64,000 nucleotides of DNA from Sphingopyxis sp. (GTDB taxonomy: Bacteria; Pseudomonadota; Alphaproteobacteria; Sphingomonadales; Sphingomonadaceae): the NCBI RefSeq assembly GCF_016463645.1, contig NZ_JAEMQX010000010.1, forward strand, positions 1,165 to 65,164, read 5' to 3'. The notes below the pieces were generated by a model that saw only the letters and a program-made list of their open reading frames with translations, was not told the DNA's origin and did no database searches. A program made the position numbers and the translations under genes. Position 1 is the first letter of the stretch, and each line of letters opens with the position of its first letter. Below are positions 1 through 11,696 of this stretch, one piece after another.

Positions 1-252
1 ATGCCCCATCGCGGCATGTTCCGGCGGGCAACTCGAAGGCTCGGGCGCCATGTCCATCCCTTGCATGCTGCCATGATCCATCGGCTCTTCGGCAGGCGCG
101 GTCGGCGGCGGCGACGCTACCGGTGCGGGCGTGGGGGCCGGCGTCGGCGCGGGCGCCGAGCCGTGCATCGAATGATCCATCGATTGCGCAGCGGCCGGAA
201 CCGCGAAAGCGAGCGGCGCGATGCCGGCGAGGAGGAACGCGATCCGGGTCAT
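1..252 (-). CDS. copB: Copper resistance protein B, N-terminal part (gene runs off the left edge)
   Basis: ATG at 252 overlaps the copA stop (ATGA). Translation MTRIAFLLAGIAPLAFAVPAAAQSMDHSMHG...MDHGSMQGMDM...CPPEHAAMGH gives a signal peptide plus a Met/His-rich N-terminus typical of CopB downstream of copA. Not in the ORF track because it is truncated. Confidence 0.8.
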   Translation of the reverse strand, partial: MTRIAFLLAGIAPLAFAVPAAAQSMDHSMHGSAPAPTPAPTPAPVASPPPTAPAEEPMDHGSMQGMDMAPEPSSCPPEHAAMGH

Positions 253-2096
253 TGCGCGTCCTCCTTCGGACGGACGCTGACGACGCGCATCATCCCGGCG
301 TGCATATGGTAGAGAAGGTGGCAGTGGAACGCCCAGTCGCCGAGCGCGTCGGCGGTGAAATCGAAACTCGCGGTTCCGCCCGGCTGGACGAGCACCGTAT
401 GCTTGCGCGGCGAGCGGTCGCCTTTGCCCGTCACCAGCTCGAAGAAATGGCCGTGCAGATGGATCGGATGGCTCATCATCGAATCGTTGATCAGGTTGAT
501 CCGCACCCGTTCGCCTTCGATGAAGGGGATCGGCTCATGATAGTCGGACATCTTGATGCCGTCGAACGACCACATGAAGCGCTCCATGTTGCCGGTCAGA
601 TGGATGTCGAGCGAGCGCGACGCCGCGCGCACGTCGGGATTGCGTTCAAGCGCGACCAGGTCGTGGTAGGTCAGCACTTTGTGCCCGACATCTTCGAGCC
701 CCTGCCCCGGCTCGCCCATACGATCCATCGGCATCGGCGATATCGTCTGGACGCTCGGATCGCGCTTGACCTGCGGCGCGACGCTGAAATCGCGCATGCT
801 GTGCTGCATGCCGCCGGACCCATGATCCATGCCCGCCATCGCGCCGCCTTCGCCGGCGGGTGTGCAGTGACCCATCTTGGCGTGTTCCGGGGGGCAGGAA
901 GGATTGGCCGCAGGCATGGGCATGGCGCCCATGTCACCGCCGCCCGAATGGTCCATGCCCGCCATGGAGCCGCCCGACATGTCCATGTCGCCCATGCCCA
1001 TGTCCTTCATCGTGGCAAGCGGGCGTTCGCGAAGCGGTGGCACCTCGGCGATCATGCCGGCGCGCGGCGCGAGCGTCGCGCGGCCCATGCCCGACCGGTC
1101 ATTGGCCTCGGCGACGAGCGCATAGGCGCGGTCCTCGACCGGGGTCACGATGACATCATAGGTTTCGGCGACGGCGATCTGGAATTCGTCGATTTCGGTC
1201 GGCACGACATTCAGCCCGTCGGCCTGCACCACCGTCATGCGAAGACCCGGGATACGCACGTTGAAGATGGTCATCGCCGAGGCGTTGACGATGCGCAGCC
1301 GCACGCGTTCGCCGGGATTGAAGAGCGCCGTCCAATTGTCGCGCGGCCCATGGCCGTTGACGAGAAATGTGTAGGTCGACCCGTTGACGTCGGCGACGTC
1401 GGTCGGGTCCATCCGCATCTTGCCCCAGTCGATTCGCTCCTTCAGCGGCTGGTCCTTGCCAGCGAGCAGTCCGGAAAGCGTCTGGCGCTGCATGTTGAAA
1501 TGGCCGGGATTGACCTTGAGCTTGCGAAAGATCGCCTCGGGCGACAGCTGGCTGTGGTCCGACAACACGACCACATGTTCGCGGTCGTAGCCGATCGGAT
1601 CGGGTCCGGCAGGATCGATCACGATCGGCCCATAATGGCCGAGTTGCTCCTGCAGTCCCGAATGGCTGTGATACCAATAGGTGCCCGACTGGACGACGGG
1701 AAATTCATAGACAAAGGTCGAGCGCGGCTTGATGCCGGGGAAGCTGACGCCGGGCACGCCGTCCATCTGGAACGGCAGAATCAGTCCGTGCCAGTGAATC
1801 GAGCTGTCCTCGTCGAGATCGTTGACGACGGTCAGGCGCGCTGTCTGCCCTTCCTTCAGCCGGACGAGCGGCGCGGGCACGGTGCCGTTAATCCCGATTG
1901 CACGGCTGACCTTGCCATCGATGCGCATCGTCTGGCGCGCGATGCGCAGCGTGATGTCGTTACCGGATACGGTCGGGAGGGGCGCGGTAATGCCGGACGA
2001 CACCGGCTGGGCCCAGGCCGGGAACCATGCGGCCATCGCCGCAGCCGCCCCTCCGCCTAAAGCTCCACTGACGAACCGACGCCTTTCCATCTGCAT
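249..2096 (-). CDS. copA: Copper resistance multicopper oxidase CopA (Tat-exported)
   Basis: Twin-arginine signal (ERRRFV); multicopper oxidase motifs HWHG, WYHSH, HPIHLHGH, HCHLLYHM; Met-rich loop. Confidence 0.95.
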   Translation of the reverse strand: MQMERRRFVSGALGGGAAAAMAAWFPAWAQPVSSGITAPLPTVSGNDITLRIARQTMRIDGKVSRAIGINGTVPAPLVRLKEGQTARLTVVNDLDEDSSIHWHGLILPFQMDGVPGVSFPGIKPRSTFVYEFPVVQSGTYWYHSHSGLQEQLGHYGPIVIDPAGPDPIGYDREHVVVLSDHSQLSPEAIFRKLKVNPGHFNMQRQTLSGLLAGKDQPLKERIDWGKMRMDPTDVADVNGSTYTFLVNGHGPRDNWTALFNPGERVRLRIVNASAMTIFNVRIPGLRMTVVQADGLNVVPTEIDEFQIAVAETYDVIVTPVEDRAYALVAEANDRSGMGRATLAPRAGMIAEVPPLRERPLATMKDMGMGDMDMSGGSMAGMDHSGGGDMGAMPMPAANPSCPPEHAKMGHCTPAGEGGAMAGMDHGSGGMQHSMRDFSVAPQVKRDPSVQTISPMPMDRMGEPGQGLEDVGHKVLTYHDLVALERNPDVRAASRSLDIHLTGNMERFMWSFDGIKMSDYHEPIPFIEGERVRINLINDSMMSHPIHLHGHFFELVTGKGDRSPRKHTVLVQPGGTASFDFTADALGDWAFHCHLLYHMHAGMMRVVSVRPKEDAQ

Positions 2097-2131
2097 ATTC
2101 TTTCCGACCGTTACTGACTGTTCCTAAAGCT

Positions 2132-2158
2132 ATACGCAGGCGGCACGGCTGCCCCTCA
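2132..2158 (-). promoter_or_regulatory. Putative ECF (CnrH-like) promoter of copAB
   Basis: Minus strand reads TGAGGGG-N13-TGCGTAT, about 35 bp upstream of the copA start; three further copies occur in the window. Confidence 0.65.
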
Positions 2159-2209
2159 ACAAAAATGCCGGACGATGAGGAGATGACGCCTGAACGAGCG
2201 GTCGAACCG

Positions 2210-2794
2210 TCAACCCTCCGCACTCGCGGACGTTCCCGCGAGTAATTCCCGGAGCCTGGTCCGCGCTCGGTAGAGGCGCGTTTCGACCGTCTTCTCGCTG
2301 ACGCGCAAAATGACCGCGGTTTCGGCCTGGCTGACCTCGTCGACACCGCGGAGGAGCAAGACTTCGCGCAAATTCTGCGGCAGCTGGTCGATCGCCCCGC
2401 GAACCTTGGCGAGTTCTCGCCTGTCGGTCGCCTCGGAATCGGGCGCCGGACCATCGCTTGCTACGTGATGCGCATTTTCGAGCGGGAGCGCGCGGGAGAA
2501 AAAGGCGCGCACCTTTCGCCGTCTTGCCCAGTCGCGACATTTGTTGAGCGCGATACGGGCGATCCACGTGCGGAAGGGGCGTTCGCCATCATAGCGGTCG
2601 AGCGCCGAAAAACCGGAGACGAACGTCTCCTGCGTCAAATCCATCGCCTCGTCGGCATCGCCGATCTGCTTTACGATGAGCCGGTAGACACCCGTTTTGT
2701 AGCGGCGCAGCAACTCGCGATAGGCATCGTCACGTTGCGCGCGGGCGAGAACCGCCAAATCCTGGTCGCTACATTGCGATAAGTCGGCGCTCAC
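2210..2794 (-). CDS. ECF RNA polymerase sigma-70 factor, CnrH-like
   Basis: Region 2 (DAEAMDLTQETF-like, WIARIALNKCRD) and region 4 (SQAETAVILRVSEKTVETRLYRAR); third gene of a cnrYXH-like triad. Confidence 0.9.
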   Translation of the reverse strand: MSADLSQCSDQDLAVLARAQRDDAYRELLRRYKTGVYRLIVKQIGDADEAMDLTQETFVSGFSALDRYDGERPFRTWIARIALNKCRDWARRRKVRAFFSRALPLENAHHVASDGPAPDSEATDRRELAKVRGAIDQLPQNLREVLLLRGVDEVSQAETAVILRVSEKTVETRLYRARTRLRELLAGTSASAEG

Positions 2795-3228
2795 CGCGCG
2801 TCGGCGGTCAGCGCCTTGACCACGCTCCTGTCGAACATTTCCGCCTGGTCGGGGTTGAGAACCCCGCGCATCGCGAAGAGATGCTGGAGCGTTTCCTTCT
2901 GCAACGTCCCCATCACCTCATGCGTCTCGTCGATCGCCTCCGTGACGCGCGGTCCATAGCCATGCTCGGCTTCGATCGCCTGCGCGAGCCGGACATTGGC
3001 GGCGCGCATCTCAAGCTCAAGCGCCTGCCGGCGACCGGCAAAGTCGGCTTCGATCCGCTCGAGTTTCGTTTCCTGCTCCGGGGTCAGATCGAGTTGACCG
3101 TGAAGAAGCGCATGAAGTTCGGTTTCGCTGGCTCTGGGCGCATCGGCCACCAGACGACCGACGAACACGCCGGCAATCGCCGCGGCGAAAGCAATGAGCC
3201 CCACGAGAAGAAGACGGCGCGACGGCAT
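2791..3228 (-). CDS. Periplasmic heavy-metal sensor, CnrX-like
   Basis: N-terminal TM helix; LHALLHGQLDL, ERIEADF and QHLFAM give the His/His/Glu/His/Met ligand pattern of CnrX-type sensors. Confidence 0.8.
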   Translation of the reverse strand: MPSRRLLLVGLIAFAAAIAGVFVGRLVADAPRASETELHALLHGQLDLTPEQETKLERIEADFAGRRQALELEMRAANVRLAQAIEAEHGYGPRVTEAIDETHEVMGTLQKETLQHLFAMRGVLNPDQAEMFDRSVVKALTADAR

Positions 3229-3230
3229 CG

Positions 3231-3497
3231 TTACTGCACGTCCAGCAAGGTGGAAGGCGCCAATGCGCTCGGCGGACCGAACGGGGTAAGGGGACTTGCC
3301 GCGACCGCTGGCTGGGAAATCGCGCTCCCCGCAAAAATACCGCCGCCAAGGGAGACAAAGGCCGCGAGCGCCATCAGGCGGCGCGTTGCTACCGCTTCGC
3401 GCCGGCGGATCGCCAATGCGCCCATGATGCGATCGTCGAGCGCGTCGAGCGCTGCGGGCAGATCGATCCTGTTCAAAATGCGAAGCTCCTCATCCAT
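3231..3497 (-). CDS. Small single-TM anti-sigma factor, CnrY-like
   Basis: About 88 aa with one hydrophobic segment (LMALAAFVSLGGGIFAG); first gene of the triad; start moved to MDEELR. Confidence 0.65.
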   Translation of the reverse strand: MDEELRILNRIDLPAALDALDDRIMGALAIRRREAVATRRLMALAAFVSLGGGIFAGSAISQPAVAASPLTPFGPPSALAPSTLLDVQ

Positions 3498-3530
3498 CGA
3501 TCGTCTCTTCAAACCTTTCCATCATTGTAC

Positions 3531-3557
3531 ATACGCGCCGAAGCGCTTCACCCCTCA
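3531..3557 (-). promoter_or_regulatory. Putative ECF promoter of the cnrYXH-like operon (autoregulation)
   Basis: Minus strand reads TGAGGGG-N13-CGCGTAT. Confidence 0.65.
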
Positions 3558-3582
3558 CACTGGAATATTATACCGGAATATT

Positions 3583-3609
3583 TGAGGGCCATGCCGATAT
3601 CCTGCGTAT
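3583..3609 (+). promoter_or_regulatory. Putative ECF promoter of copCD
   Basis: TGAGGGC-N13-TGCGTAT, 20 bp upstream of the copC ATG; GGAATATT direct repeats (3562-3569, 3575-3582) lie between the divergent promoters. Confidence 0.65.
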
Positions 3610-3628
3610 TAGCAGGACAGACACGCAT

Positions 3629-4024
3629 TTGGAGGTGTTCATGTTCAAGTCTCTTCTCCCCTCTGCAGTGGCGGCTTTCGCACTGCTTATCACGCCGGTC
3701 GCAGCGAGCGCGCACACCAAGCTCGTCAGCTCGACGCCGGCCGCCAATTCGACCGTTTCGAAGGTCACGTCGGTCAATCTGCAGTTCAACGAAAAGATCG
3801 TCGCCTCGACCCTCAAGACCGAGCTGGTCATGACCGGAATGCCCGGCATGGCCAATCATGCACCGATGAAGGTGCCCTACTCGTCGATGATGGGCAAAGA
3901 GGGCAAGTCGGCGATGCTGATGCTCAAGCGGCCGCTGACGCCCGGAACCTACAAGGTCACATGGTCCGCGGCCGGCGCCGATACCCATCGCATGGGTAGC
4001 GAATTCAGCTTCACCGTTAAGTAA
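3629..4024 (+). CDS. copC: Periplasmic copper-binding protein CopC
   Basis: Signal peptide then AHTKLVSSTPAANS; Met-rich MPGMANH; C-terminal WSAAGADTHRM. The true start may be the downstream MFKSL. Confidence 0.9.
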   Translation: MEVFMFKSLLPSAVAAFALLITPVAASAHTKLVSSTPAANSTVSKVTSVNLQFNEKIVASTLKTELVMTGMPGMANHAPMKVPYSSMMGKEGKSAMLMLKRPLTPGTYKVTWSAAGADTHRMGSEFSFTVK

Positions 4025-4028
4025 AGCG

Positions 4029-5000
4029 GTGGGGGACCCCGTCCTGATCGGCATCAGGTTCGCACTTTATGCGGACCTGATGCTCATCGCTGGCCTTGCT
4101 GCGTTCCCGCTCTATGCGCTGACACGAAGCGAACGCCTTGCGCCGCAGTCGATGATGGCCTCGATCTGGCGCGCAGAGCGATGGCTCTGCGCCGCCGGAC
4201 TGCTTCTCTCCATCTTGGGGATGGGCGTGCTCGCGGCTTCAATGCAGGGTGTGGGGCTCCTCTCCCTGGAACTCCAGCCTTTCTGGGACCTTGTTCGCGA
4301 GACCGAGGTCGGCACAGCCTGGGTCTACCGGAGCGCAGCGCTACTGCTCGCGCTGGCCGTCGCGATCTGGATGGTCCGCTGGCCGACAACGTCGGCCGCC
4401 GTACTCGCGGCCGCAGGCTCGGTGGCCGTCGCGAGTCTGGTCTGGTCCGGCCACGCCGGCGCGACCGAAGGCGCCGCAGGCACCGCGCACCGGATCAGCG
4501 ACATCTTGCACCTGATCGCAGCCGCGGTCTGGATCGGCGCGATCGGCGCCTTCCTGATCCTGATCTCACCACGTCGTGTCCGCGAATGGCCGGGCGGGCC
4601 CCAAATTGCGGCGCGGAGCCTCGAACAATTCTCGCGCGTCGGCACGATCTGCGTCCTCGTCATCGCCGCCACCGGCCTCATCAATAGCCAGATGATCGTC
4701 GGCGCCGAGAATCTCGGCCGGTCTCTCGGGTCGCCCTATGGACAATTGCTCCTTGCCAAGCTCGCTCTGTTTGGACTGATGCTTGCGCTCGCGGCCGCCA
4801 ATCGCTGGCGACTGACGCCTGCGCTCGCGGCGGCGACGGCGGCAAGCGACGATGCAGAAAGCGTCGATTCCGATCCAGATGCGGCGCTCGCGGCCATGCG
4901 CAGGAGCCTCATCATCGAAGCGTCGGCCGCGCTCGCCATACTCGCGCTGGTTGCCTGGTTCGGGACGCTCGAGCCGTTCGTCGCCGCCGATCCGGTTTGA
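4029..5000 (+). CDS. copD: Copper homeostasis membrane protein CopD
   Basis: Multi-TM; WSGHAGA, LHLIAAAVWIG, YGQLLLAKL and LAAANRWRLTP motifs; follows copC. Confidence 0.9.
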   Translation: MGDPVLIGIRFALYADLMLIAGLAAFPLYALTRSERLAPQSMMASIWRAERWLCAAGLLLSILGMGVLAASMQGVGLLSLELQPFWDLVRETEVGTAWVYRSAALLLALAVAIWMVRWPTTSAAVLAAAGSVAVASLVWSGHAGATEGAAGTAHRISDILHLIAAAVWIGAIGAFLILISPRRVREWPGGPQIAARSLEQFSRVGTICVLVIAATGLINSQMIVGAENLGRSLGSPYGQLLLAKLALFGLMLALAAANRWRLTPALAAATAASDDAESVDSDPDAALAAMRRSLIIEASAALAILALVAWFGTLEPFVAADPV

Positions 5001-5722
5001 CGCTCAACACCGTCTCCTGGTCCGGCTCGATCATGCTCGGGACCGGCTGGGCATTGATCGATGCGCGCATCGGGAACAGCCGTCCTCATGGCCATGTGGC
5101 GCATCAGGTCAGCCTCGCCGTCGAACGCGACCTCGAAATTTCCGGCGATGCCGACATGATAGTCCCTGCCGGACATGCGGTAGCCATTGCGTCGCAAGTC
5201 CGGCACCGCCTGGGGCCGCCAGGCGCCCTCGTGCGATCATTTTATCTCGACCCGCTTTTTCGCGCCGACGCGCGGCTGTCCGTCGGATCGGCGCCTGTCC
5301 TGTTGACACCGGTAGAGACAGCCGGACTATGCGATATCGCTAGCGGCGCAGACGCAAAGCGCTGGGCGTCCGGCTATCTCGACCGGTCGCAGGCGCGTCC
5401 GGTGGATGCACGCCTGTCCGAAGCGCTCGCGGCCCCCGATGATTTGTCGAGTGCCCGCGCCCTGGCCGACGTTGCCTGCCTCTCACCCTCGCGCCTGCGC
5501 GAAATCGTCAGCCGCGACTTCGGCGTGCCTCCGGCCAAATTGCTGCAATGGCTCCAGCTTCAACGCGCAGTGCGGGCGCTGGTCGGCGGCGGAAGCCTCG
5601 CCGCCGCCGCCGCCGCGGGCGGCTTTGCCGATCAGTCGCACTTCACGCGCCGCTGCGCCCAATGGCTCGGCGTCACGCCTTCGGCCGGCCTCAGCGCTTT
5701 CGCTTTCGAAATCGTGCCCTGA
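4997..5722 (+). CDS. AraC-family transcriptional regulator (copy 1)
   Basis: C-terminal LSPSRLR...GFADQSHFTR double HTH; N-terminal HGHVAHQ; TTG start overlaps the copD stop. Confidence 0.85.
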   Translation: MTLNTVSWSGSIMLGTGWALIDARIGNSRPHGHVAHQVSLAVERDLEISGDADMIVPAGHAVAIASQVRHRLGPPGALVRSFYLDPLFRADARLSVGSAPVLLTPVETAGLCDIASGADAKRWASGYLDRSQARPVDARLSEALAAPDDLSSARALADVACLSPSRLREIVSRDFGVPPAKLLQWLQLQRAVRALVGGGSLAAAAAAGGFADQSHFTRRCAQWLGVTPSAGLSAFAFEIVP

Positions 5723-5845
5723 GCCACACGCGCCTAGCTCCGGCGAAACATTCAAGACCGGCGCGCCAGCTCGCGCCTAAACGTCTCGTCGAGACTCGCG
5801 CAGCCGCAATCCAGCGGCAAGCCAAAGCGTCGAAAGGAGACGGCC

Positions 5846-6523
5846 ATGCCCGACCCGATACCCGTAGCGAGTTCCTACACGCCAGCGGCAGGATATCACT
5901 TCTTGACGCCCTTTTATGATTTCGGCGTCGCGGTGACGACGCGCGAGCGCGTGTGGCGCGACCGTCTCGTTCGCCATATGGCGCTCGGCGAGGGTGACGT
6001 TATTCTCGACATCGGTTCGGGTACGGGAAATCTCGCGCTGGCGATCGGCCGCCATAGCCGGGACGTCCGCTATCTCGGTATCGACCCCGACGAAGCTGCG
6101 ACGCGAATTGCCCGAACCAAGACCGCGCAGATTGTTCCGCCGCCGGAGTTTCGCGTTGGCTTTTTCGCGGCTTCGGCGATCGATGACTGGCCCTCGCCTG
6201 CCAGGATTGCGATCTGCCTCGTCCTTCATCAGGTCGGGCTTGAGGAAAAGGCACGTCTGCTACGCGAGGCCTGGCAGGTGCTCGCGCCGGGCGGCAAACT
6301 CTATGTCGCCGACTATGGGGAACAGCGCAGCCGCCTCATGCGGTTGTTGTTCCGCCTCACGATCCAGCAGCTCGATGGCGTCCAGGACACCCAGCCCAAC
6401 GCCGATGGATTGCTACCGGTGCTGATGAGAGAGGCTGGCTTTCGCGATATTTGCGAGCTTGAGACATTTCGCACGCTAACCGGTGCGATCGCCATCATCG
6501 AGGCCGGCAAGCCCCGGATCTGA
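5846..6523 (+). CDS. Class I SAM-dependent methyltransferase (copy 1)
   Basis: Motif I VILDIGSGTG; LAPGGKLYVADY; GGAG RBS. Confidence 0.9.
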   Translation: MPDPIPVASSYTPAAGYHFLTPFYDFGVAVTTRERVWRDRLVRHMALGEGDVILDIGSGTGNLALAIGRHSRDVRYLGIDPDEAATRIARTKTAQIVPPPEFRVGFFAASAIDDWPSPARIAICLVLHQVGLEEKARLLREAWQVLAPGGKLYVADYGEQRSRLMRLLFRLTIQQLDGVQDTQPNADGLLPVLMREAGFRDICELETFRTLTGAIAIIEAGKPRI

Positions 6524-6544
6524 TTGGACGGGGCAAAGAAAATC

Positions 6545-6571
6545 CGAGGGATAATCACCTTCCTTGCGTAT
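6545..6571 (+). promoter_or_regulatory. Putative ECF promoter of the Cu-ATPase
   Basis: CGAGGGA-N13-TGCGTAT, about 120 bp upstream of the ATPase start. Confidence 0.6.
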
Positions 6572-6689
6572 CGATAGGAGCGGCTCCATTCTGGAGCCGC
6601 CAGGAAAGCCACCAACGGCGAACACGGCCGGCGGCGTTCGGACGGCTCCGCCATAGGGTGGGCATCCGATATGGACGGGAGCGGCGACG

Positions 6690-9011
6690 ATGCACGATCA
6701 TCAAGGCGCGGAAAATGGCAGCGGGAGTACGACCGATCCGGTCTGCGGCATGATGGTCGACCCGGCCACCACGCCGTACATGGCGACGCACGGCGGCAAA
6801 CACCATCATTTTTGCAGCGCAGGTTGCCTCGCCAAATTCGAGGCCGATCCCGATCTTTATGCCGCAAAGCGCGAGCCGGCCATAGCCGATGCACCCGAGG
6901 GCGCCATCTGGACCTGCCCGATGCATCCCGAGATCCAGCGCCCCGGCCCTGGAAGCTGCCCGATCTGCGGCATGGCACTCGAGCCCGTCATGCCAGCCGC
7001 ATCCGACGGCCCGAGCGAAGAATATCGCGACATGCGGCAGCGCTTCTGGATCGGGCTCCTTCTCGCCCTCCCGGTGGTTGCGCTCGAAATGGGCGGTCAT
7101 CTGACGGGCCTCCACCAATATGTCGGCCGCCAGACGAACAACTGGATCCAGATGCTGCTTGCGACCCCCGTCGTGCTATGGGCGGGCTGGCCCTTCTTCG
7201 AGCGCGCGTGGCTCTCGATCCGCAACAAAAGCCTCAACATGTTCACTCTCATCGCGATGGGGACGGGGGTCGCGTGGGGCTACAGCATGATCGCGGCGAT
7301 AGCCCCGCAAATCTTCCCTGCCGCCTTCCGCGCCGCCGACGGCTCTGTCGCGGTATATTTCGAGGCCGCCGCGGTCATCACGGTGCTGGTGCTGCTCGGG
7401 CAGGTACTCGAACTCAGGGCGCGCGAGACGACGAGCGGCGCGATCCGCGCGCTTCTGGACCTCACGCCCAAGCTCGCCCGCCGCGTCCGCAGCGACGGAA
7501 GCGACGAGGAGGTCGCGCTCGAGGAAGTCGCGGTCGGCGACATGCTGCGCATTCGTCCGGGCGAAAAAGTCCCGGTCGATGGCATCGTCGTGGAAGGCCG
7601 CGGCTCGGTCGACGAATCGATGGTCACGGGCGAGTCGATGCCGGTGACCAAGGAGGCCGGCGCGGCGCTGATCGGCGGGACAATCAACCAGACCGGCGGC
7701 CTGCTCATGCGCAGCGAGAAGGTCGGGCGCGATACGATGCTCGCGCGGATCGTACAGATGGTCGCCGACGCGCAGCGCAGCCGCGCCCCGATCCAGCGCC
7801 TCGCCGATACGGTTTCGGGCTGGTTCGTGCCGGGCGTCATCGCCGTCGCCGTCGCGGCTTTCATCATCTGGTCGCTCGTCGGACCGGCGCCCGCAATGGC
7901 CTATGGCCTGATCGCCGCCGTCTCGGTGCTCATCATCGCCTGTCCCTGCGCGCTCGGCCTAGCGACGCCGATGTCGATCATGGTCGGCGTGGGGCGCGGC
8001 GCCGAAGCCGGCGTGCTGATCAAGAATGCCGAGGCGCTTGAACGGATGGAGAAGGTCGACACGCTCGTCGTCGACAAGACCGGGACGCTGACCGAAGGCA
8101 GACCCTCGGTCGTCGCGATCGAAGTCGCCGACGGCTTCGAAGAGCAGGATTTGCTGCGGATTGCCGCGAGCCTCGAGCGTAGCAGCGAACATCCATTGGC
8201 GGCGGCGATCGTCAAGGCCGCCGACGACCGGGGCCTCGCGCTGGTCGAGCCATCGGGGGTCGATCAGCCAGTCGGCAAGGGCATCGTCGGGGTCGTAGAC
8301 GACAAGGCGATTGTCCTCGGCAATGCGAACTTTCTCGAAGAATATGACGTCGATCTGGGCGCGCTCGCCGAGGCAGCCGACCGCCTTCGCACAGACGGCG
8401 CGACGGCGATCTACATCGCGGTCAACGGCAAGGCGGCCGGCGTCATCGCCATCGCCGATCCGGTCAAGGAGACGACAAGCGCAGCACTCGCGGCGCTGCG
8501 CGAAGCCGGAATCAAGGTCATCATGCTCACCGGCGACAATCGCGTCACCGCCGAGGCGATCGCACGGCGGCTCGGCATCGACAATGTCGAGGCCGACGTC
8601 CTCCCCGACCAGAAGAGCGCCGTCGTCCAGCGGCTGCGCGAAGAGGGCGGGATCGTCGCCATGGCCGGCGACGGGGTCAACGACGCCCCGGCGCTTGCCG
8701 CCGCCGATGTCGGCATCGCCATGGGTTCGGGAACCGACGTCGCCATCGAAAGCGCAGGCGTCACGCTGCTGCGCGGCGACCTTATGGGTATCGTCCGGGC
8801 GCGGCACCTCAGCCATGCGACGATGGGGAACATCCGGCAAAACCTTTTCTTCGCCTTCGCCTATAATGTCGCGGGCATTCCGGTCGCGGCGGGGGTGCTC
8901 TATCCGGTCTTCGGGCTGCTCTTGTCACCGATCATCGCCGCCGCCGCGATGGCGCTTTCGTCGGTGAGCGTCATCGCCAATTCGCTGCGGCTGCGGTTCG
9001 TGAAAATCTGA
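6690..9011 (+). CDS. Cu(I)/Ag(I)-translocating P1B-1 ATPase with YHS and CPMHP metal-binding domains
   Basis: DPVCGM...HFCSAGC (YHS); CPMHPEI...CPICGM; CPC; DKTGTLT; SEHP; GDGVNDAP; YN and MALSS in the last TMs. Confidence 0.95.
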
Positions 9012-9058
9012 TCGAAGCGTCGCCGCGCCGTTCGGCGGCGGGTATTGAAAAAGGGAGA

Positions 9059-9523
9059 ATGGGGATGAGAGGTTTCACTGCAGCGGCGATCGGGCTGGCG
9101 CTGGCCATGGCGGTTCCCGCCCACGCGGCCGCAACCCCGGATTATCAGGCGGCCGCCGCGACGCTGGCGCAATATAAGCAGGCGATCGAGAGCCGCGACC
9201 TGTCGGGCGTCGAAGCCTTGTTCGCGCCCGACGCCCAGATCTTCGAGTCGGGTGGCGTCGAAGGAAATTTCGCGCATTATCGCGACCATCATCTTGCCCC
9301 TGAATTGAAGGCGTTCAAATCCTTCGCGTTTAGCGACTATAAAATCTCGGTGCGCGGCGAAGGCGAGGTCGCGCTCGCCACCGAAACCTATAATTATACG
9401 ATCGTCCTCACCAATGGCGAGACGATCGTGCGCGCGGGCGTCGCGACCAGCGTGCTCAAAAGGACCGACGGCCAATGGCGGATCATCAGCTTGCACAGCT
9501 CCTCGCGTAAGCCGAAGGCGTGA
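9059..9523 (+). CDS. Secreted NTF2/SnoaL-like protein (DUF4440-like)
   Basis: Signal peptide; ...LFAPDAQIFE...YRDHHL...WRIISLHSS pattern of the NTF2-like fold. Confidence 0.7.
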   Translation: MGMRGFTAAAIGLALAMAVPAHAAATPDYQAAAATLAQYKQAIESRDLSGVEALFAPDAQIFESGGVEGNFAHYRDHHLAPELKAFKSFAFSDYKISVRGEGEVALATETYNYTIVLTNGETIVRAGVATSVLKRTDGQWRIISLHSSSRKPKA

Positions 9524-9703
9524 GCGGCGAGCGCGCGATAGGGTGCCTGTTCGCCGCGGCGCGATCAGCCCCGCTCGAAGACCGAAATAATCGGGCAGTG
9601 CGTCCGGTGGATCGTAACCGCGGCGGGGTCAGCCGCGAACTGCACATTTGACCCGCCCGAGTTTGGAATTGACGGCAAGTTGGACAAGGATCATGTGTCG
9701 ACC

Positions 9704-10072
9704 GTGAAGCGTTGGCTTTCCCTCTTGCTCCTTCTGGGAGCGATGCTGGGCCTTTTGGCCCAGGAAGCGGCGTTCGCATCGGCGCCTGCCATGCCCATGC
9801 CGGCGGACACCACCATTGCCGCATCGGCGATGAGCGATGAATGCGCGGAAATGATGGGGATCGACACGTCCCAAGATAAGGCGCCCTGCAAGGGCCTGAC
9901 ACTCGACTGCATCGCCAAGATGGGCTGCGCATTGCCGCCAACGGTCGTGACTCCTGCCACCTTGTTGGCGACGTCCGACCATAGCGCCGAGCCGACCGAC
10001 CAATTGCCGATCGCGCGTCTGCGCGGCCGCACCTTCGGACCCGAGCCCGACCCGCCCCTATTGCCCGGCTGA
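9704..10072 (+). CDS. Small secreted Cys/Met-rich leader protein ending GPEPDPP (DUF2946/CutF-like)
   Basis: Hydrophobic N-terminus; ECAEMM; CKGLTLDCIAKMGC; Pro-rich C-terminus; first gene of the cus cluster. GTG start is uncertain (track start 9680). Confidence 0.7.
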   Translation: MKRWLSLLLLLGAMLGLLAQEAAFASAPAMPMPADTTIAASAMSDECAEMMGIDTSQDKAPCKGLTLDCIAKMGCALPPTVVTPATLLATSDHSAEPTDQLPIARLRGRTFGPEPDPPLLPG

Positions 10073-10138
10073 AACGCGCGATGCGCGGTGACCGTCGTCG
10101 CCGCGCATCCTTCTGCTTTTCAACCGAGGATATTCGAC

Positions 10139-10402
10139 ATGAAGACGATCATTGCGATGGCCGCAGCGCTTGCGGCTTTCACCACCGTGCCCTCCTTCGC
10201 CCAGGAGGCGGGCGGCCATTATGAATGGCAATCGCGGCAGGTCCCGGGCCCGAACAAGTCGGGCGCCACCACGAGGGTTCGCGTGTGGGTCGCGGACAAG
10301 CCCGAGCAGATGGCGAACTGCGACTGCGCCATGATGAAGACCGACGCGGCCGGCTGCATGCAAGCCATGCCCGGGCAGCGCATGTCGCCCTCCAAGGGCT
10401 GA
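10139..10402 (+). CDS. Small secreted hypothetical protein with CDCAMM...CM motif
   Basis: GAGG RBS; signal peptide MKTIIAMAAALAAFTTVPSFA; Cys/Met-rich C-terminal half. Confidence 0.7.
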   Translation: MKTIIAMAAALAAFTTVPSFAQEAGGHYEWQSRQVPGPNKSGATTRVRVWVADKPEQMANCDCAMMKTDAAGCMQAMPGQRMSPSKG

Positions 10403-10466
10403 CGGCTTCCGTCCCCCGGCCGCCCGGCCGGGGGACATTCCCGCCTGTCTCGAAAGAGGGGGACAT

Positions 10467-11696
10467 ATGCGCATATATCTTGCGGCAATTTTGCTGATCC
10501 CGATGCCCGCGGCGCTGCGTGCCGAGCCGATGACGCTCGATGCGGCGCTCGTCCGCGCGGCATCGGAGGCGCCCGAATTGCAGGGCCGCGAAGCCGGCAT
10601 CGATGCCGCCCAATCGGCGGCGATCGCCGCCGATCGGCTGCCCGACCCGAAACTCAATATCGTCCTGCAGGATTTCCCGGTGACGGGTCCCGATGCAGGC
10701 CGGTTCAATCGTGACAACTTCACGATGCAGGTCGTCGGTATCAGCCAGGATTTTCCGAACCCCGCCAAGCGGCGCGCGCGTGCAACGCGCGCGCAGGCCG
10801 ACATCGGCATCGCCCGCGCCGACGAAGCGGTCACCGCGCAGGACATCCGGCTCTCGACCGCTCTCGCCTGGGTCGATCTCTATTATGCCAAGAAGCGGCT
10901 GAAGGAACTCGACCTGCTCGATGACGGCCTCGAGGATCTTCAATCGACGGTGACGGCACGGCTCGCGAGCGGCGCCGCGCGCCCGGCGCAGGCGCTCGAA
11001 CCCGACCAGCTTCGCGCCGCGATCAACGATCGCCGCAGCGCGCTCGCGGCCGAGATTGCCCGCGCCCGCGCGCAGCTCGCGCGCTTTACCGGCGACGCGG
11101 CCGCCGACACGCTGGGCGATTTGCCGCCGCAGGCGATCGACGAGCAAGGATTGCGCGCCGGGATTGATGCCTTGCCAAGGCTGCGGGCGCTCGACGCCCG
11201 CGCCATCGCCGCCGACGCCGAAACCGGCCTCGCGCGCGCCGACAAGCGCCCCGACTGGAGCGTCAACGCGGCCTATGGGCGGCGCGAGCCCAATTATGGC
11301 GACCTCGTCACGGTCGGGGTTACCGTCGACCTACCCTTCTTCTCGAAAAAGCGGCAGGACCCGAAGATCGCCGCACGCGCCAGCGAAGCGACGCGCGCCC
11401 GGCTCGACCGCGAGGCCGCGAAGCGCGACATCGCCGCGGCGCTCGACGCTGATCTCGCCGACCATCGCATGCATCATGAGCAGCTTGGCAATGCACGGTC
11501 ACGGCTGGTGCCGCTCGCCAAGAAGCGCGCCGAACTCGATCTTGCAAGTTACGCCGCCGGAAAGCTCGACCTCGGGACTGCGCTCCTGTCGACTCTCGCG
11601 CTCGCAGAGGCCGAAGTCGATGCGCTCGCACGCGAAGCCGAGGTCGCGCGCGACGCGATCCGGATCAACTATATTTATGGGGAGGCAGGTCGATGA
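10467..11696 (+). CDS. cusC: TolC-family outer membrane factor (CusC/SilC-like)
   Basis: OEP repeats (RLPDPKL, KRPDWSV, VDLPFF); first gene of the RND triad. Confidence 0.85.
   Translation: MRIYLAAILLIPMPAALRAEPMTLDAALVRAASEAPELQGREAGIDAAQSAAIAADRLPDPKLNIVLQDFPVTGPDAGRFNRDNFTMQVVGISQDFPNPAKRRARATRAQADIGIARADEAVTAQDIRLSTALAWVDLYYAKKRLKELDLLDDGLEDLQSTVTARLASGAARPAQALEPDQLRAAINDRRSALAAEIARARAQLARFTGDAAADTLGDLPPQAIDEQGLRAGIDALPRLRALDARAIAADAETGLARADKRPDWSVNAAYGRREPNYGDLVTVGVTVDLPFFSKKRQDPKIAARASEATRARLDREAAKRDIAAALDADLADHRMHHEQLGNARSRLVPLAKKRAELDLASYAAGKLDLGTALLSTLALAEAEVDALAREAEVARDAIRINYIYGEAGR

What the first reader, a model, noticed from the sequence alone, without database searches (positions are those of the whole stretch)
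2132..6571. A CnrYXH-like ECF system apparently wired to copper genes: four matching promoters
Seen: YGAGGGN-N13-YGCGTAT with identical spacing upstream of copA (2132-2158, -), the cnrY-like gene (3531-3557, -), copC (3583-3609, +) and the Cu-ATPase (6545-6571, +). I did not find it upstream of either czc operon or the cus leader. Established: Cupriavidus CnrYXH is a Ni/Co-sensing cascade whose promoters have a similar AGGGG / CGTAT core and drive an RND pump. Inference: here the module is a periplasmic copper-sensing regulon, even though the sensor keeps the His-His-Glu-His-Met ligand pattern.
Basis: partly seen in the sequence, partly recalled or inferred. Interest (0 to 1): 0.62.

Follow-up and report, generated by a model that had tools for sequence, protein, structure and literature searches.

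The report
Sigma-factor switch wired to copper genes
A three-gene membrane sensor, anti-sigma and sigma-factor module related to the nickel/cobalt switch CnrYXH sits in the middle of a copper-resistance island in a Sphingopyxis genome, and its promoter signature precedes itself and three copper operons; the layout is shared by hundreds of alphaproteobacterial genomes, I found no paper on it, and the metal it senses is still unproven.

Summary
YGAGGG-N14-YGCGTAT occurs exactly four times in the window (0.02 expected), in front of copA, the cnrY-like gene, copC and a Cu P-type ATPase. In the whole 4.55-Mb genome the strict pattern occurs only six times. The other two copies lie in a second copy of the same cassette on another contig.

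The three regulator genes are homologues of CnrYXH:
- The sigma factor's best solved relative is CnrH.
- The sensor matches NccX/CnrX and keeps all five metal ligands.
- The small first gene has CnrY's architecture but no detectable sequence similarity to it.

The mapped CnrH promoters of pMOL28 have the same two boxes, with a spacer 1 nt longer.

In 80 named species genomes the motif precedes cnrY in 79 of 80, copA in 71 of 77, copC in 64 of 76 and the ATPase in 32 of 44. The spacers are not conserved.

The wiring to copper genes is therefore well supported. The claim that the sensor detects copper is only inferred. The ligand set is the same in pump-linked and copper-linked relatives. The one relevant public transcriptome shows what looks like the same cassette induced by nickel.

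This is a widespread variant of a known kind, and I found no description of it.

The parts
1..252 (-). copB, 3' part, cut by the window edge; follows copA in the same operon
   Evidence: ORF list. The homologous gene is annotated 'copper resistance protein B' on S. indica plasmid pMC4. The paralogue on C129 matches PF05275 CopB.
249..2096 (-). copA, periplasmic multicopper oxidase (615 aa)
   Evidence: TIGR01480 copper_res_A, 810 bits against a cut-off of 479; three Cu-oxidase Pfam domains.
2132..2158 (-). PcopA, an ECF-type promoter (TGAGGG -35, GCGTAT -10). Predicted start site about 2124; the copA ATG is at 2096.
   Evidence: 26.0 bits. The same position carries the motif in 71 of 77 related loci. 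The start site is predicted by analogy with cnrYp and cnrCp.
2210..2794 (-). ECF sigma factor (194 aa), a CnrH homologue; its start overlaps the cnrX-like stop by 4 nt
   Evidence: Sigma70_r2 and r4_2 domains. Best solved relative is CnrH 4cxf, E = 3.4e-29. 45% identity to CnrH over 137 aa.
2791..3228 (-). CnrX-like membrane-anchored periplasmic metal sensor (145 aa)
   Evidence: PF13801 Metal_resist, 67 bits. NccX 4clv E = 3e-18 and CnrX 2y39 E = 6e-16, with H42, H46, E63, H119 and M123 all aligned and kept.
3231..3497 (-). CnrY-like putative anti-sigma factor (88 aa from the ATG at 3497; an upstream TTG at 3512 is less likely). It has a cytoplasmic N-terminal part, one membrane helix and a periplasmic tail ending LAPSTLLDVQ.
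   Evidence: It is the first gene of the operon, 2 nt before cnrX. Its size and architecture match the 95-aa CnrY. No sequence similarity to CnrY was found. It is conserved next to cnrX in 45 loci.
3531..3557 (-). PcnrY, the autoregulatory ECF promoter. Predicted start site about 3523.
   Evidence: 26.3 bits. Present in 79 of 80 related loci. Contigs from four RNA runs end at 3508-3518.
3583..3609 (+). PcopC, an ECF promoter divergent from PcnrY. Predicted start site about 3617; the copC ATG is at 3641.
   Evidence: 24.7 bits. Present in 64 of 76 related loci. Contigs from four RNA runs start at 3624-3627.
3641..4024 (+). copC, periplasmic copper-binding protein
   Evidence: NF033814, 99.3 bits against a cut-off of 95; PF04234.
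4029..5000 (+). copD, inner-membrane copper protein
   Evidence: NF033808, 290 bits against a cut-off of 195.
4997..6523 (+). Short AraC-family regulator (4997-5722) and a SAM-dependent methyltransferase (5846-6523) downstream of copD. They may be read through from PcopC. Whether they belong to the regulon is uncertain.
   Evidence: Pfam HTH_18 and Methyltransf domains. No motif of their own here. In Erythrobacter and Porphyrobacter loci the homologous methyltransferase has the motif directly upstream.
6545..6571 (+). ECF promoter of the Cu-ATPase. Predicted start site about 6579, giving a leader of about 110 nt.
   Evidence: 23.7 bits. Present before the ATPase in 32 of 44 related loci. Absent in S. 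yanoikuyae pF1, where the ATPase sits beside cueR.
6580..6600 (+). 9-bp hairpin at the 5' end of the predicted ATPase mRNA
   Evidence: Predicted fold. Conserved in Sphingopyxis relatives, with one C-G to T-A compensatory change. Its function is not tested.
6690..9011 (+). Cu(I)-exporting P1B-type ATPase (773 aa) with N-terminal YHS and HMBD metal-binding domains
   Evidence: TIGR01511, 598 bits against a cut-off of 397; E1-E2_ATPase, YHS and HMBD domains.
9059..9523 (+). SnoaL/NTF2-like protein 47 nt after the ATPase, probably in the same transcript
   Evidence: PF13474. The same gene order is annotated on pMC4.

Best explanation
The window carries a CnrYXH-type regulatory module (ECF group ECF291, formerly ECF20). 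It consists of a membrane-anchored periplasmic metal sensor (CnrX-like), a small single-pass anti-sigma protein (CnrY-like) and an ECF sigma factor (CnrH-like).

Proposed mechanism. At rest the anti-sigma protein holds the sigma factor at the membrane. Metal binding to the sensor's periplasmic His3-Glu(-Met) site changes the sensor/anti-sigma contact and frees the sigma factor. RNA polymerase carrying this sigma factor then starts transcription about 8 nt downstream of four promoters of the form TGAGGG-N14-YGCGTAT:
- its own operon (positive feedback), which can read through into copAB
- copAB
- copCD, possibly with the downstream AraC and methyltransferase genes
- the Cu(I)-ATPase with its NTF2-like neighbour

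A second, chromosomal copy of the cassette on contig C129 uses the same promoter type, so the two are likely to cross-talk.

What is shown: the homology of the sensor and sigma factor, the gene order, the promoter motif, its restriction to copper genes, and its conservation across genera. What is inferred: the anti-sigma role of the 88-aa protein, the exact start sites, and above all the inducing metal. Copper is the most likely signal because every target handles copper. Nickel or cobalt may also trigger it. The confidence given (0.8) is for the wiring, that is, that this sigma module drives these promoters. Given that wiring, I put copper as the physiological inducer at about 0.6.
For: Motif statistics:
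- Four sites in the window against 0.02 expected.
- Six strict sites in 4.55 Mb, all in the two cop cassettes.
- The weight-matrix scan is bimodal, with 0 simulated hits above 18 bits.

Homology:
- Sensor against NccX and CnrX, E = 3e-18 and 6e-16, ligands kept.
- Sigma factor against CnrH, E = 3.4e-29, the best solved relative.
- Y-X-H gene order with overlapping or abutting reading frames.

Promoter identity:
- pMOL28 cnrYp and cnrCp read CAAGGGGG...CCGTAT and CGAGGGG...CCGTAT.
- Their published start sites lie 8 nt after CGTAT (PMC9045368).
- The ECF Hub consensus for ECF291, quoted in PMC13492112, is the reverse complement of TGAGGG/GCGTAT.

Conservation across species:
- In 29 loci with sensor identity from 97% down to 53%, the two boxes are kept and the spacer is free. 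Positions the search did not fix are 84-96% conserved.
- In 80 named species the motif precedes cnrY in 79 of 80, copA in 71 of 77, copC in 64 of 76 and the ATPase in 32 of 44.
- The same pairing with copA occurs in three further alphaproteobacterial families.

Other support:
- Neither copper-regulator family I searched for reached its cut-off anywhere in the genome: CueR (TIGR02044) and CopS/CusS-type kinases (TIGR01386).
- In four RNA runs of a roughly 95%-identical relative, contigs start at 3624-3627 (copC) and end at 3508-3518 (cnrY). The promoter region between them is left uncovered.
Against: - There is no direct start-site or induction data for this organism. The RNA evidence is contig ends from coded runs, not reads. 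One other run labelled RNA (X36) covers the intergenic region, and several 'RNA?' runs are clearly DNA-like.
- The CnrY-like protein has no detectable similarity to CnrY (BLASTP E = 12; hhalign probability 5.5%).
- The spacer is 1 nt shorter than in the cnr promoters.
- Metal specificity is open. The ligand set is identical in pump-linked and copper-linked relatives, and an apparently identical cassette in Sphingobium sp. ba1 was induced by 10 mM Ni.
- The link to the ATPase is lineage-specific: 32 of 44 loci, with CueR in its place on pF1.
Confidence: 0.8

Rival explanations
1. The wiring is the same, but the sensor has kept its ancestral Ni(II)/Co(II) specificity. The module would switch on CopAB, CopCD and the ATPase in response to nickel or cobalt (or to several divalent metals), and copper would be at most a secondary inducer.
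For: - All five CnrX ligands, including the Met that is decisive for the Ni/Co response, are kept.
- In Sphingobium sp. ba1, copB-MCO rose (listed value 2.24) and copC rose (listed value 5.93) in 10 mM Ni. These genes flank three unlisted genes, exactly as in this cassette (PMC5557971).
- A close Sphingobium plasmid has that exact layout, with a 125-aa CopC.
Against: - Every conserved target across more than 100 loci is a copper-handling gene, and none is a Ni/Co exporter.
- The window has separate czc-type pumps without the motif.
- 10 mM Ni is an extreme dose that could act indirectly, and that study did not test copper.
- The identity of the three ba1 genes was not verified here.
- From memory: Cu(II) occupies the same site in CnrX crystals (PDB 3EPV), so the ligand set does not exclude copper.
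Confidence: 0.25
2. The shared motif is the operator of a conventional DNA-binding regulator (for example a response regulator or a MerR- or AraC-type protein) and not a promoter read by the adjacent ECF sigma factor.
For: A short AraC-family gene lies downstream of copD. Conserved upstream motifs can be operators.
Against: - The motif is two asymmetric boxes with a fixed gap and a free spacer. It always points toward the gene, with its -10 end a median of about 35 nt before the start codon at copA and copC and about 119 nt at the ATPase.
- It matches the mapped CnrH-dependent promoters and the ECF291 consensus.
- It travels with the sigma/sensor pair across families even where the AraC gene is absent.
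- No sigma-70-like promoter is found at these positions.
Confidence: 0.04
3. The module responds to general envelope or redox damage and not to a specific metal ion, and the cop genes are part of an envelope-stress regulon.
For: Many ECF systems sense envelope stress. The sensor fold belongs to the LTXXQ/Spy/CpxP-like superfamily (weak PF07813 hit). Induction at a very high Ni dose could be indirect.
Against: The metal ligands are invariant or nearly so (H46, E63 and H119 in 52 of 52; H42 in 51; M123 in 50), which argues for direct metal binding. The regulon is confined to metal-handling genes, and no chaperone or protease targets were found.
Confidence: 0.06

Closest known systems
CnrYXH of Cupriavidus metallidurans CH34 (pMOL28) and NccYXH of strain 31A; ECF group ECF291 (formerly ECF20)
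   Same: - Three-gene Y-X-H operon with coupled reading frames.
- PF13801 sensor with the H42/H46/E63/H119/M123 site.
- Sigma factor closest to CnrH.
- Small single-pass first-gene product of about 90 aa.
- Autoregulated promoter plus target promoter(s) with GAGGG/AAGGG and CGTAT boxes.
   Different: - The targets are copAB, copCD and a Cu P1B-ATPase instead of the CnrCBA RND pump and CnrT.
- The spacer is 1 nt shorter.
- The sensor is only 32-38% identical and sits on a very long branch away from CnrX/NccX.
- It has an extra conserved HxxMG segment.
- The anti-sigma protein is not recognisably similar to CnrY in sequence.
- The inducer is unknown.
CopRS/PcoRS/CusRS-controlled copABCD (pco) systems of Pseudomonas, E. 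coli plasmids and Cupriavidus
   Same: The same structural genes (multicopper oxidase CopA, CopB, CopC, CopD) and periplasmic sensing of the metal.
   Different: No two-component system is present. No heavy-metal sensor kinase reaches its family cut-off anywhere in the genome. Control is by a sigma/anti-sigma switch.
CorE (ECF44) and CarQ/CarR of Myxococcus xanthus, the copper-responsive ECF sigma factors described so far (PMC6851896)
   Same: An ECF sigma factor drives a multicopper oxidase and a Cu P-type ATPase.
   Different: CorE binds copper itself through a Cys-rich C-terminal extension and has no anti-sigma factor. The sigma factor here is a plain 194-aa sigma2-sigma4 protein with a separate periplasmic sensor and an anti-sigma protein. 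It is a different ECF group with a different promoter.
CueR (MerR family) control of the Cu(I)-ATPase CopA
   Same: The regulated gene is a Cu(I)-exporting P1B-ATPase.
   Different: No CueR reaches its cut-off in this genome and none is next to the ATPase. The ATPase carries the ECF motif instead. On S. yanoikuyae pF1 the reverse holds: cueR is present and the motif is absent.

Membership tests
CnrYXH / ECF291 (CnrH-like ECF system) | ECF sigma factor (sigma2 + sigma4 only) whose closest characterised relative is CnrH | tested here: met
   Pfam r2 and r4_2 domains. CnrH 4cxf is the best solved match, E = 3.4e-29, ahead of SigW at 6e-22. 45% identity over 137 aa.
CnrYXH / ECF291 (CnrH-like ECF system) | Formal assignment to group ECF291 by the ECF Hub models | not testable with these tools
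   The ECF Hub HMMs are not available here. The assignment is inferred from the CnrH match and the promoter consensus.
CnrYXH / ECF291 (CnrH-like ECF system) | CnrX-type sensor: N-terminal membrane anchor, periplasmic four-helix domain, ligands His42, His46, Glu63, His119 and Met123 | tested here: met
   PF13801. NccX and CnrX hits with all five residues aligned. The residues are kept in 50-52 of 52 family members.
CnrYXH / ECF291 (CnrH-like ECF system) | CnrY-type class II anti-sigma factor encoded first in the operon | tested here: inconclusive
   The position, the size (88 vs 95 aa), the single membrane helix and the C-terminal xPxxLL tail agree. No sequence similarity was found by BLASTP (E = 12), hhalign (5.5%) or a profile search of the PDB.
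CnrYXH / ECF291 (CnrH-like ECF system) | Autoregulated promoter before the Y gene with the CnrH-type -35 and -10 boxes | tested here: met
   TGAGGGG-N13-CGCGTAT at 3531-3557(-), compared with CAAGGGGG...CCGTAT at cnrYp. The gap between AGGG and CGTAT is 16 nt here and 17 nt in cnr.
CnrYXH / ECF291 (CnrH-like ECF system) | Regulated output is an RND Ni/Co efflux pump (cnrCBA, with or without cnrT) | tested here: not met
   The motif precedes copA, copC and a Cu-ATPase only. None of the window's RND operons carries it.
CnrYXH / ECF291 (CnrH-like ECF system) | Induction by periplasmic Ni(II) or Co(II) | not testable with these tools
   There is only indirect evidence: Ni induction of a look-alike cassette in Sphingobium sp. 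ba1 (PMC5557971).
Cop/Pco copper-resistance determinant (copABCD) | CopA multicopper oxidase, CopB, CopC and CopD all present | tested here: met
   TIGR01480, NF033814 and NF033808 are all over their cut-offs. copB is partial at the window edge, and PF05275 matches the paralogue.
Cop/Pco copper-resistance determinant (copABCD) | Adjacent CopRS/PcoRS two-component regulator | tested here: not met
   No TIGR01386-type kinase is over its cut-off in the genome, and none lies on the window's contig.
CorE-like copper-binding ECF sigma factors (ECF44) | Cys-rich C-terminal extension and no anti-sigma factor | tested here: not met
   The 194-aa protein ends with region 4. It has two Cys residues and no extension (sequence), and anti-sigma and sensor genes are adjacent.

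The most novel reading that the evidence does not exclude
CnrX-type sensors of Alphaproteobacteria detect periplasmic copper using the same first-shell His3-Glu-Met site that reads Ni/Co in Cupriavidus. Specificity would be set by the second shell, for example by the clade-specific HxxMG segment. That would make this the first copper pathway built from a periplasmic sensor, an anti-sigma factor and an ECF sigma factor. It would also be the main copper regulator of Sphingomonadales and Caulobacterales, standing in for CopRS and, in Sphingopyxis, for CueR. At least 494 species genomes and 82 plasmids carry a CnrX-like sensor gene.
Probability: 0.5. Interest if true: 0.7.

Novelty: new variant of a known kind. 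Interest (0 to 1): 0.56.

Why it matters
Copper resistance in sphingomonads is usually annotated gene by gene, with no regulator named. These bacteria are common in copper plumbing biofilms, sludge and polluted soils. The analysis points to one dedicated switch with a simple, highly specific promoter, which explains how copAB, copCD and in some lineages the Cu-ATPase are co-ordinated.

The system also offers a natural experiment in metal selectivity. The same five ligands sit in front of a Ni/Co pump in one lineage and in front of copper genes in another.

It could supply an orthogonal metal-inducible sigma/promoter pair for alphaproteobacterial engineering.

It may also explain a published oddity, nickel induction of cop genes in Sphingobium sp. 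ba1.

Finally, the ECF291 consensus used in a recent Cupriavidus start-site study appears to be the reverse complement of the real promoter. That could affect the study's 395 'ECF291' assignments.

Tried and rejected
- **Start sites from public RNA runs.** The runs that hold the exact sequence (X2, X12, X13, X17, X28, X34) gave long contigs spanning genes and promoters. They are DNA-like and uninformative. Only four low-depth runs of a relative (X29-X31, X33) gave usable contig ends. No raw reads were available.
- **Homology of the 88-aa protein to CnrY.** I tried phmmer against the PDB, BLASTP, hhalign with a 26-sequence profile, and a profile search of the PDB. All were negative.
- **A seventh site in the genome.** The 20.1-bit hit on C255 lies on the ATG of a TonB-dependent receptor and lacks the conserved G before CGTAT, so I judged it chance.
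- **Rfam scan of 1-10500.** Nothing relevant was found. The ATPase leader as a whole is not unusually stable (z = -1.29).
- **Wide alignment for the genome scan.** It had no stretch conserved enough to search with, so I used a narrower one.
- **Original cnr promoter papers.** Grass 2000 and Tibazarwa 2000 are not held. I read the promoters directly from pMOL28 instead.
- **Supplements of the ECF reclassification paper.** They are not held.
- **Literature searches** for any description of this cassette found none.

Full report
**Observation.** Dinucleotide-preserving shuffles give a mean of 0.02, and none of 100 reached four matches. Allowing one mismatch adds a single site, at 26767-26792, which lies inside an RND pump gene. 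In the whole assembly (4.55 Mb, 270 contigs, 65% G+C) the strict pattern occurs six times. The two extra copies are 1.3 kb apart on contig C129.

I built a weight matrix from 74 sites in relatives and scanned the genome with it. The result is bimodal:
- Six sites score 22-26 bits.
- One site scores 20.1 bits.
- Everything else scores 16 bits or less, which is what a simulated genome gives (0 simulated hits above 18 bits).

The 20-bit hit overlaps the ATG of a TonB-dependent receptor and lacks the conserved G before CGTAT, so I treat it as chance.

**Genes.** On the minus strand lie copB (cut by the window edge), copA, an ECF sigma factor, a PF13801 'Metal_resist' protein and a 93-aa ORF that is more probably 88 aa. 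copA is a multicopper oxidase (TIGR01480, 810 bits against a cut-off of 479). On the plus strand, divergently, lie copC, copD, a short AraC-family gene, a SAM-dependent methyltransferase, a Cu-type P1B-ATPase with YHS and HMBD domains, and an NTF2-like gene. The three regulator genes are packed like cnrYXH. There is a 2-nt gap between the first and second genes and a 4-nt overlap between the second and third.

Comparison with the Cupriavidus proteins:
- **Sensor.** It matches NccX (4clv, E = 3e-18) and CnrX (2y39, E = 6e-16). His42, His46, Glu63, His119 and Met123 are all aligned and kept.
- **Sigma factor.** Its best solved relative is CnrH (4cxf, E = 3.4e-29), with 45% identity over 137 residues.
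- **Small first-gene product.** No similarity to CnrY appears by phmmer, BLASTP, hhalign or a profile search. It does have the same build as CnrY. A cytoplasmic segment of about 40 residues is followed by one membrane helix and a short periplasmic tail ending ...LAPSTLLDVQ, compared with ...SPFGLLIGK in CnrY.

**Is the motif an ECF promoter?** I read the two CnrH-dependent promoters directly from pMOL28. cnrYp is CAAGGGGG-...-CCGTAT and cnrCp is CGAGGGG-...-CCGTAT. The published start sites lie 23-25 nt before cnrY and cnrC (PMC9045368). On the sequence they fall 8 nt after the last T of CGTAT in both promoters.

The boxes are therefore the same as in the window. The only difference is a gap of 17 nt between AGGG and CGTAT, against 16 nt here. 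A 2026 start-site study of C. metallidurans quotes the ECF Hub consensus for group ECF291, to which CnrH belongs, as '-35 ATACGC, -10 CCCTCA' (PMC13492112). That is the exact reverse complement of GCGTAT and TGAGGG. The family-level motif has thus been predicted before and was apparently entered on the wrong strand there.

By analogy with cnr, the predicted start sites here are about 2124(-) for copA, 3523(-) for cnrY, 3617(+) for copC and 6579(+) for the ATPase. These give leaders of about 24-28 nt for the first three and about 110 nt for the ATPase.

**Comparative evidence.**
- *Same order, sampled.* A six-frame search of 300 genomes of the same order found the sensor in 83 of them, in 27 of 86 genera. 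I took 29 loci with sensor identity from 97% down to 53%. Most keep the full cassette copA<sigma<X<Y|copC>copD, and a few lack one side or carry the ATPase instead. Where those genes are present, a TGAGGG-N14-YGCGTAW site nearly always stands before cnrY, copC and copA.
- *Which positions are conserved.* Across 74 non-identical sites, the positions my search did not fix are strongly conserved: T/C then G before AGGG, and Y then G before CGTA. The 13-nt spacer and the flanks carry no information. About 4 loose matches would be expected by chance in these loci, and 81 were found.
- *Named genomes.* A scan of one genome per species returned at least 494 loci encoding a relative. The best 80 are named as Sphingopyxis (S. 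italica 99%), Sphingorhabdus, Sphingobium, Novosphingobium, Erythrobacter, Porphyrobacter, Altererythrobacter and Pelagerythrobacter. Among them the motif precedes cnrY in 79 of 80, copA in 71 of 77, copC in 64 of 76 and a Cu-ATPase in 32 of 44.
- *Outside the order.* The sensor/sigma pair again sits next to copA, with motif-like sites, in three more alphaproteobacterial families. Plasmid hits name Caulobacter and Asticcacaulis. In another family of the same order, in a second alphaproteobacterial family and in a Cupriavidus-like genome it sits next to RND pumps.
- *Tree.* On a sensor tree the genomic context is strongly clustered (0 of 500 shuffles as low). CnrX and NccX lie on a very long branch apart from all alphaproteobacterial members.

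**Second cassette and mobility.** Contig C129 carries copB2-copA2-sigma2-X2-Y2|copC2-copD2 between housekeeping genes. sigma2 is 68% identical to the window's sigma factor and X2 is 78% identical to the window's sensor. Strict motifs precede copA2 and cnrY2. A weaker CAAGGGC-N13-CGCGTAC precedes copC2 at the same spacing.

The window's copy is 88.9% identical over 98% of 9.6 kb to the conjugative megaplasmid pMC4 of Sphingopyxis indica. There the genes are annotated only as 'RNA polymerase sigma factor', 'periplasmic heavy metal sensor' and 'hypothetical protein'. Eighty-two PLSDB plasmids carry a homologue of the sensor, and 56 of them are conjugative or mobilizable. Near-identical DNA occurs in many biofilm, sludge and freshwater metagenomes.

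**Transcript evidence.** It is limited. Runs holding the exact sequence gave DNA-like contigs. Four low-depth RNA runs of one coded organism, with a cassette about 95% identical, gave consistent contig ends:
- The contig covering copC begins at 3624, 3627, 3627 and 3627.
- The contig covering cnrY ends at 3518, 3517, 3513 and 3508.
- The roughly 105 nt holding the two divergent promoters is left uncovered.
- On the copA side the contigs end at 2100, 2097, 2134 and 2220. This suggests both a start near the predicted site and read-through from the sigma gene.

These ends are compatible with the predicted start sites, allowing the usual loss of a few bases at assembled ends. They are not proof.

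The five ligands are conserved in 50-52 of 52 sensors whether the neighbour is a copper oxidase or an RND pump, so they do not discriminate. All alphaproteobacterial members share an additional HxxMG segment (window H103, M106, G107) that CnrX and NccX lack. It is also present in the pump-linked alphaproteobacterial clade.

The only relevant experiment I found is an RNA-seq study of Sphingobium sp. ba1 grown in 10 mM Ni(II). IL54_2270 (CopB) and IL54_2271 (multicopper oxidase) were up (listed value 2.24). IL54_2275 (CopC, 125 aa, first gene of a three-gene operon) was up (listed value 5.93). The authors called this unexpected (PMC5557971). The three unlisted genes in between fit sigma, X and Y. 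A Sphingobium yanoikuyae plasmid has exactly this layout, with a 125-aa CopC and three motifs. I could not verify the ba1 genes themselves.

Nickel can therefore apparently turn such a cassette on, at least at an extreme dose, and copper was not tested there. Against a purely Ni/Co role, every conserved target is a copper-handling gene. The same window also has separate czc-type pumps without the motif. In addition, the genome has no CueR and no CopS/CusS-type kinase over the family cut-offs. My split is:
- about 0.8 that the module drives these promoters;
- about 0.6 that copper is the physiological inducer, given that wiring;
- 0.25 for a mainly Ni/Co-responsive or broadly responsive sensor.

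**Regulon edges.** The ATPase belongs to the regulon in Sphingopyxis and some other lineages (32 of 44). On S. yanoikuyae pF1 it instead sits beside cueR and has no motif. In relatives the motif also precedes other genes:
- a TonB-dependent receptor, in at least 15 Sphingopyxis loci, at 28-31 bits;
- the homologue of the window's methyltransferase, in Erythrobacter and Porphyrobacter;
- small His/Met-rich periplasmic proteins, in Novosphingobium.

In the window the AraC-family and methyltransferase genes have no site of their own and could only be reached by read-through from PcopC.

**Comparison with known systems, and novelty.** The module works like CnrYXH and meets most of its defining features: the sigma factor, the sensor, the gene order and the promoter type. 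It fails the output feature, because no RND pump is controlled, and the anti-sigma homology is unresolved. It is unrelated in mechanism to the copper-responsive ECF factors reviewed so far. CorE binds copper itself and has no anti-sigma factor, and CarQ/CarR is a different group (PMC6851896). It also takes the place that CopRS and CueR hold next to these genes in the classical systems.

The ECF reclassification paper notes only 'a metal efflux pump' as the context of ECF291 (PMC7826278). Ten literature searches found no description of the copper-linked form. Earlier notes of this scan reached the same reading in other genomes. Those are not independent evidence, but they agree with what I tested here.

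I class this as a new variant of a known kind. It is widespread and mobile, and I found no published test of it. The sensed metal is an open and directly testable question.

Noticed in passing
L001 (G000:C129:70000-88000) 5827-11528: A second, chromosomal-looking copy of the whole cassette (copB2-copA2-sigma2-X2-Y2|copC2-copD2) lies between a DUF2339 gene and aldehyde dehydrogenase/thiolase genes. Strict motifs are at L001 8761-8787(-) and 10095-10121(-). A degenerate CAAGGGC-N13-CGCGTAC is at 10158-10184(+) before copC2. The two sigma factors are 68% identical, so cross-talk between the cassettes is likely.
   Followed up: partly
window 3231-3260 (C-terminus of the cnrY-like protein); alignment A1: The CnrY-like proteins of 26 diverse loci share almost nothing except a C-terminal periplasmic L-A-P-S-T-L-L motif (the Pro is invariant). 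CnrY of pMOL28 ends SPFGLLIGK. This may be the peptide that docks into the sensor dimer.
   Followed up: partly
window 2908-2922 (sensor residues H103-G107): All alphaproteobacterial CnrX-like sensors carry a conserved H-x-x-M-G segment where CnrX and NccX have E-R-A-A-G. It is present in both the copper-linked and the pump-linked alphaproteobacterial clades. It could be a second metal site or a selectivity element.
   Followed up: partly
L073, L075, L083, L087, L089-L092, L096, L097 and others (about 10-11.8 kb into each locus): In at least 15 Sphingopyxis genomes a very strong copy of the motif (28-31 bits) lies about 45-130 nt before a TonB-dependent receptor gene near the cassette. The window's contig has no such gene within reach. 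An outer-membrane receptor in a metal-excess regulon is odd.
   Followed up: no
L128 4374(-), L130 5614(-); window 5846-6523: In Erythrobacter and Porphyrobacter the motif directly precedes a SAM-dependent methyltransferase homologous to the one downstream of copD in the window. That enzyme therefore belongs to the regulon in some lineages. Its substrate is unknown.
   Followed up: no
window 6580-6600: A 9-bp hairpin (GCGGCUCC/GGAGCCGC core) starts 1-2 nt after the predicted ATPase start site. It is conserved in Sphingopyxis relatives, with a C-G to U-A compensatory change in three loci. More distant genera have a different, longer conserved leader that contains short ATG-initiated stretches.
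   Followed up: partly
literature: PMC13492112, Table 4: The ECF291 (CnrH) consensus used there, '-35 ATACGC / -10 CCCTCA', is the reverse complement of the real GCGTAT (-10) and TGAGGG (-35). That may explain why 395 start sites, including some in a plasmid-free strain lacking CnrH, were assigned to ECF291 while cnrYp itself was not.
   Followed up: partly
L135 (S. yanoikuyae pF1, NZ_CP033227.1 190870-203193): A widespread plasmid-borne version of the cassette has three motifs, before copC, cnrY and the oxidase gene. Its Cu-ATPase is paired with cueR and has no motif. The ATPase has therefore moved between two regulators in different lineages.
   Followed up: yes
G000:C255:65447-65473: A 20-bit match to the motif coincides with the start codon and signal-peptide codons of a TonB-dependent receptor (ATGAGGGTTCAG...). 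I judged it chance because it lies in coding sequence and lacks the conserved G.
   Followed up: yes
window 1-9600: Near-identical DNA (98-100% of sampled words) is present in many biofilm, sludge, freshwater, indoor and soil metagenomes. The region is 88.9% identical to a conjugative 404-kb plasmid of Sphingopyxis indica. The island appears to be mobile and common in engineered water systems.
   Followed up: partly
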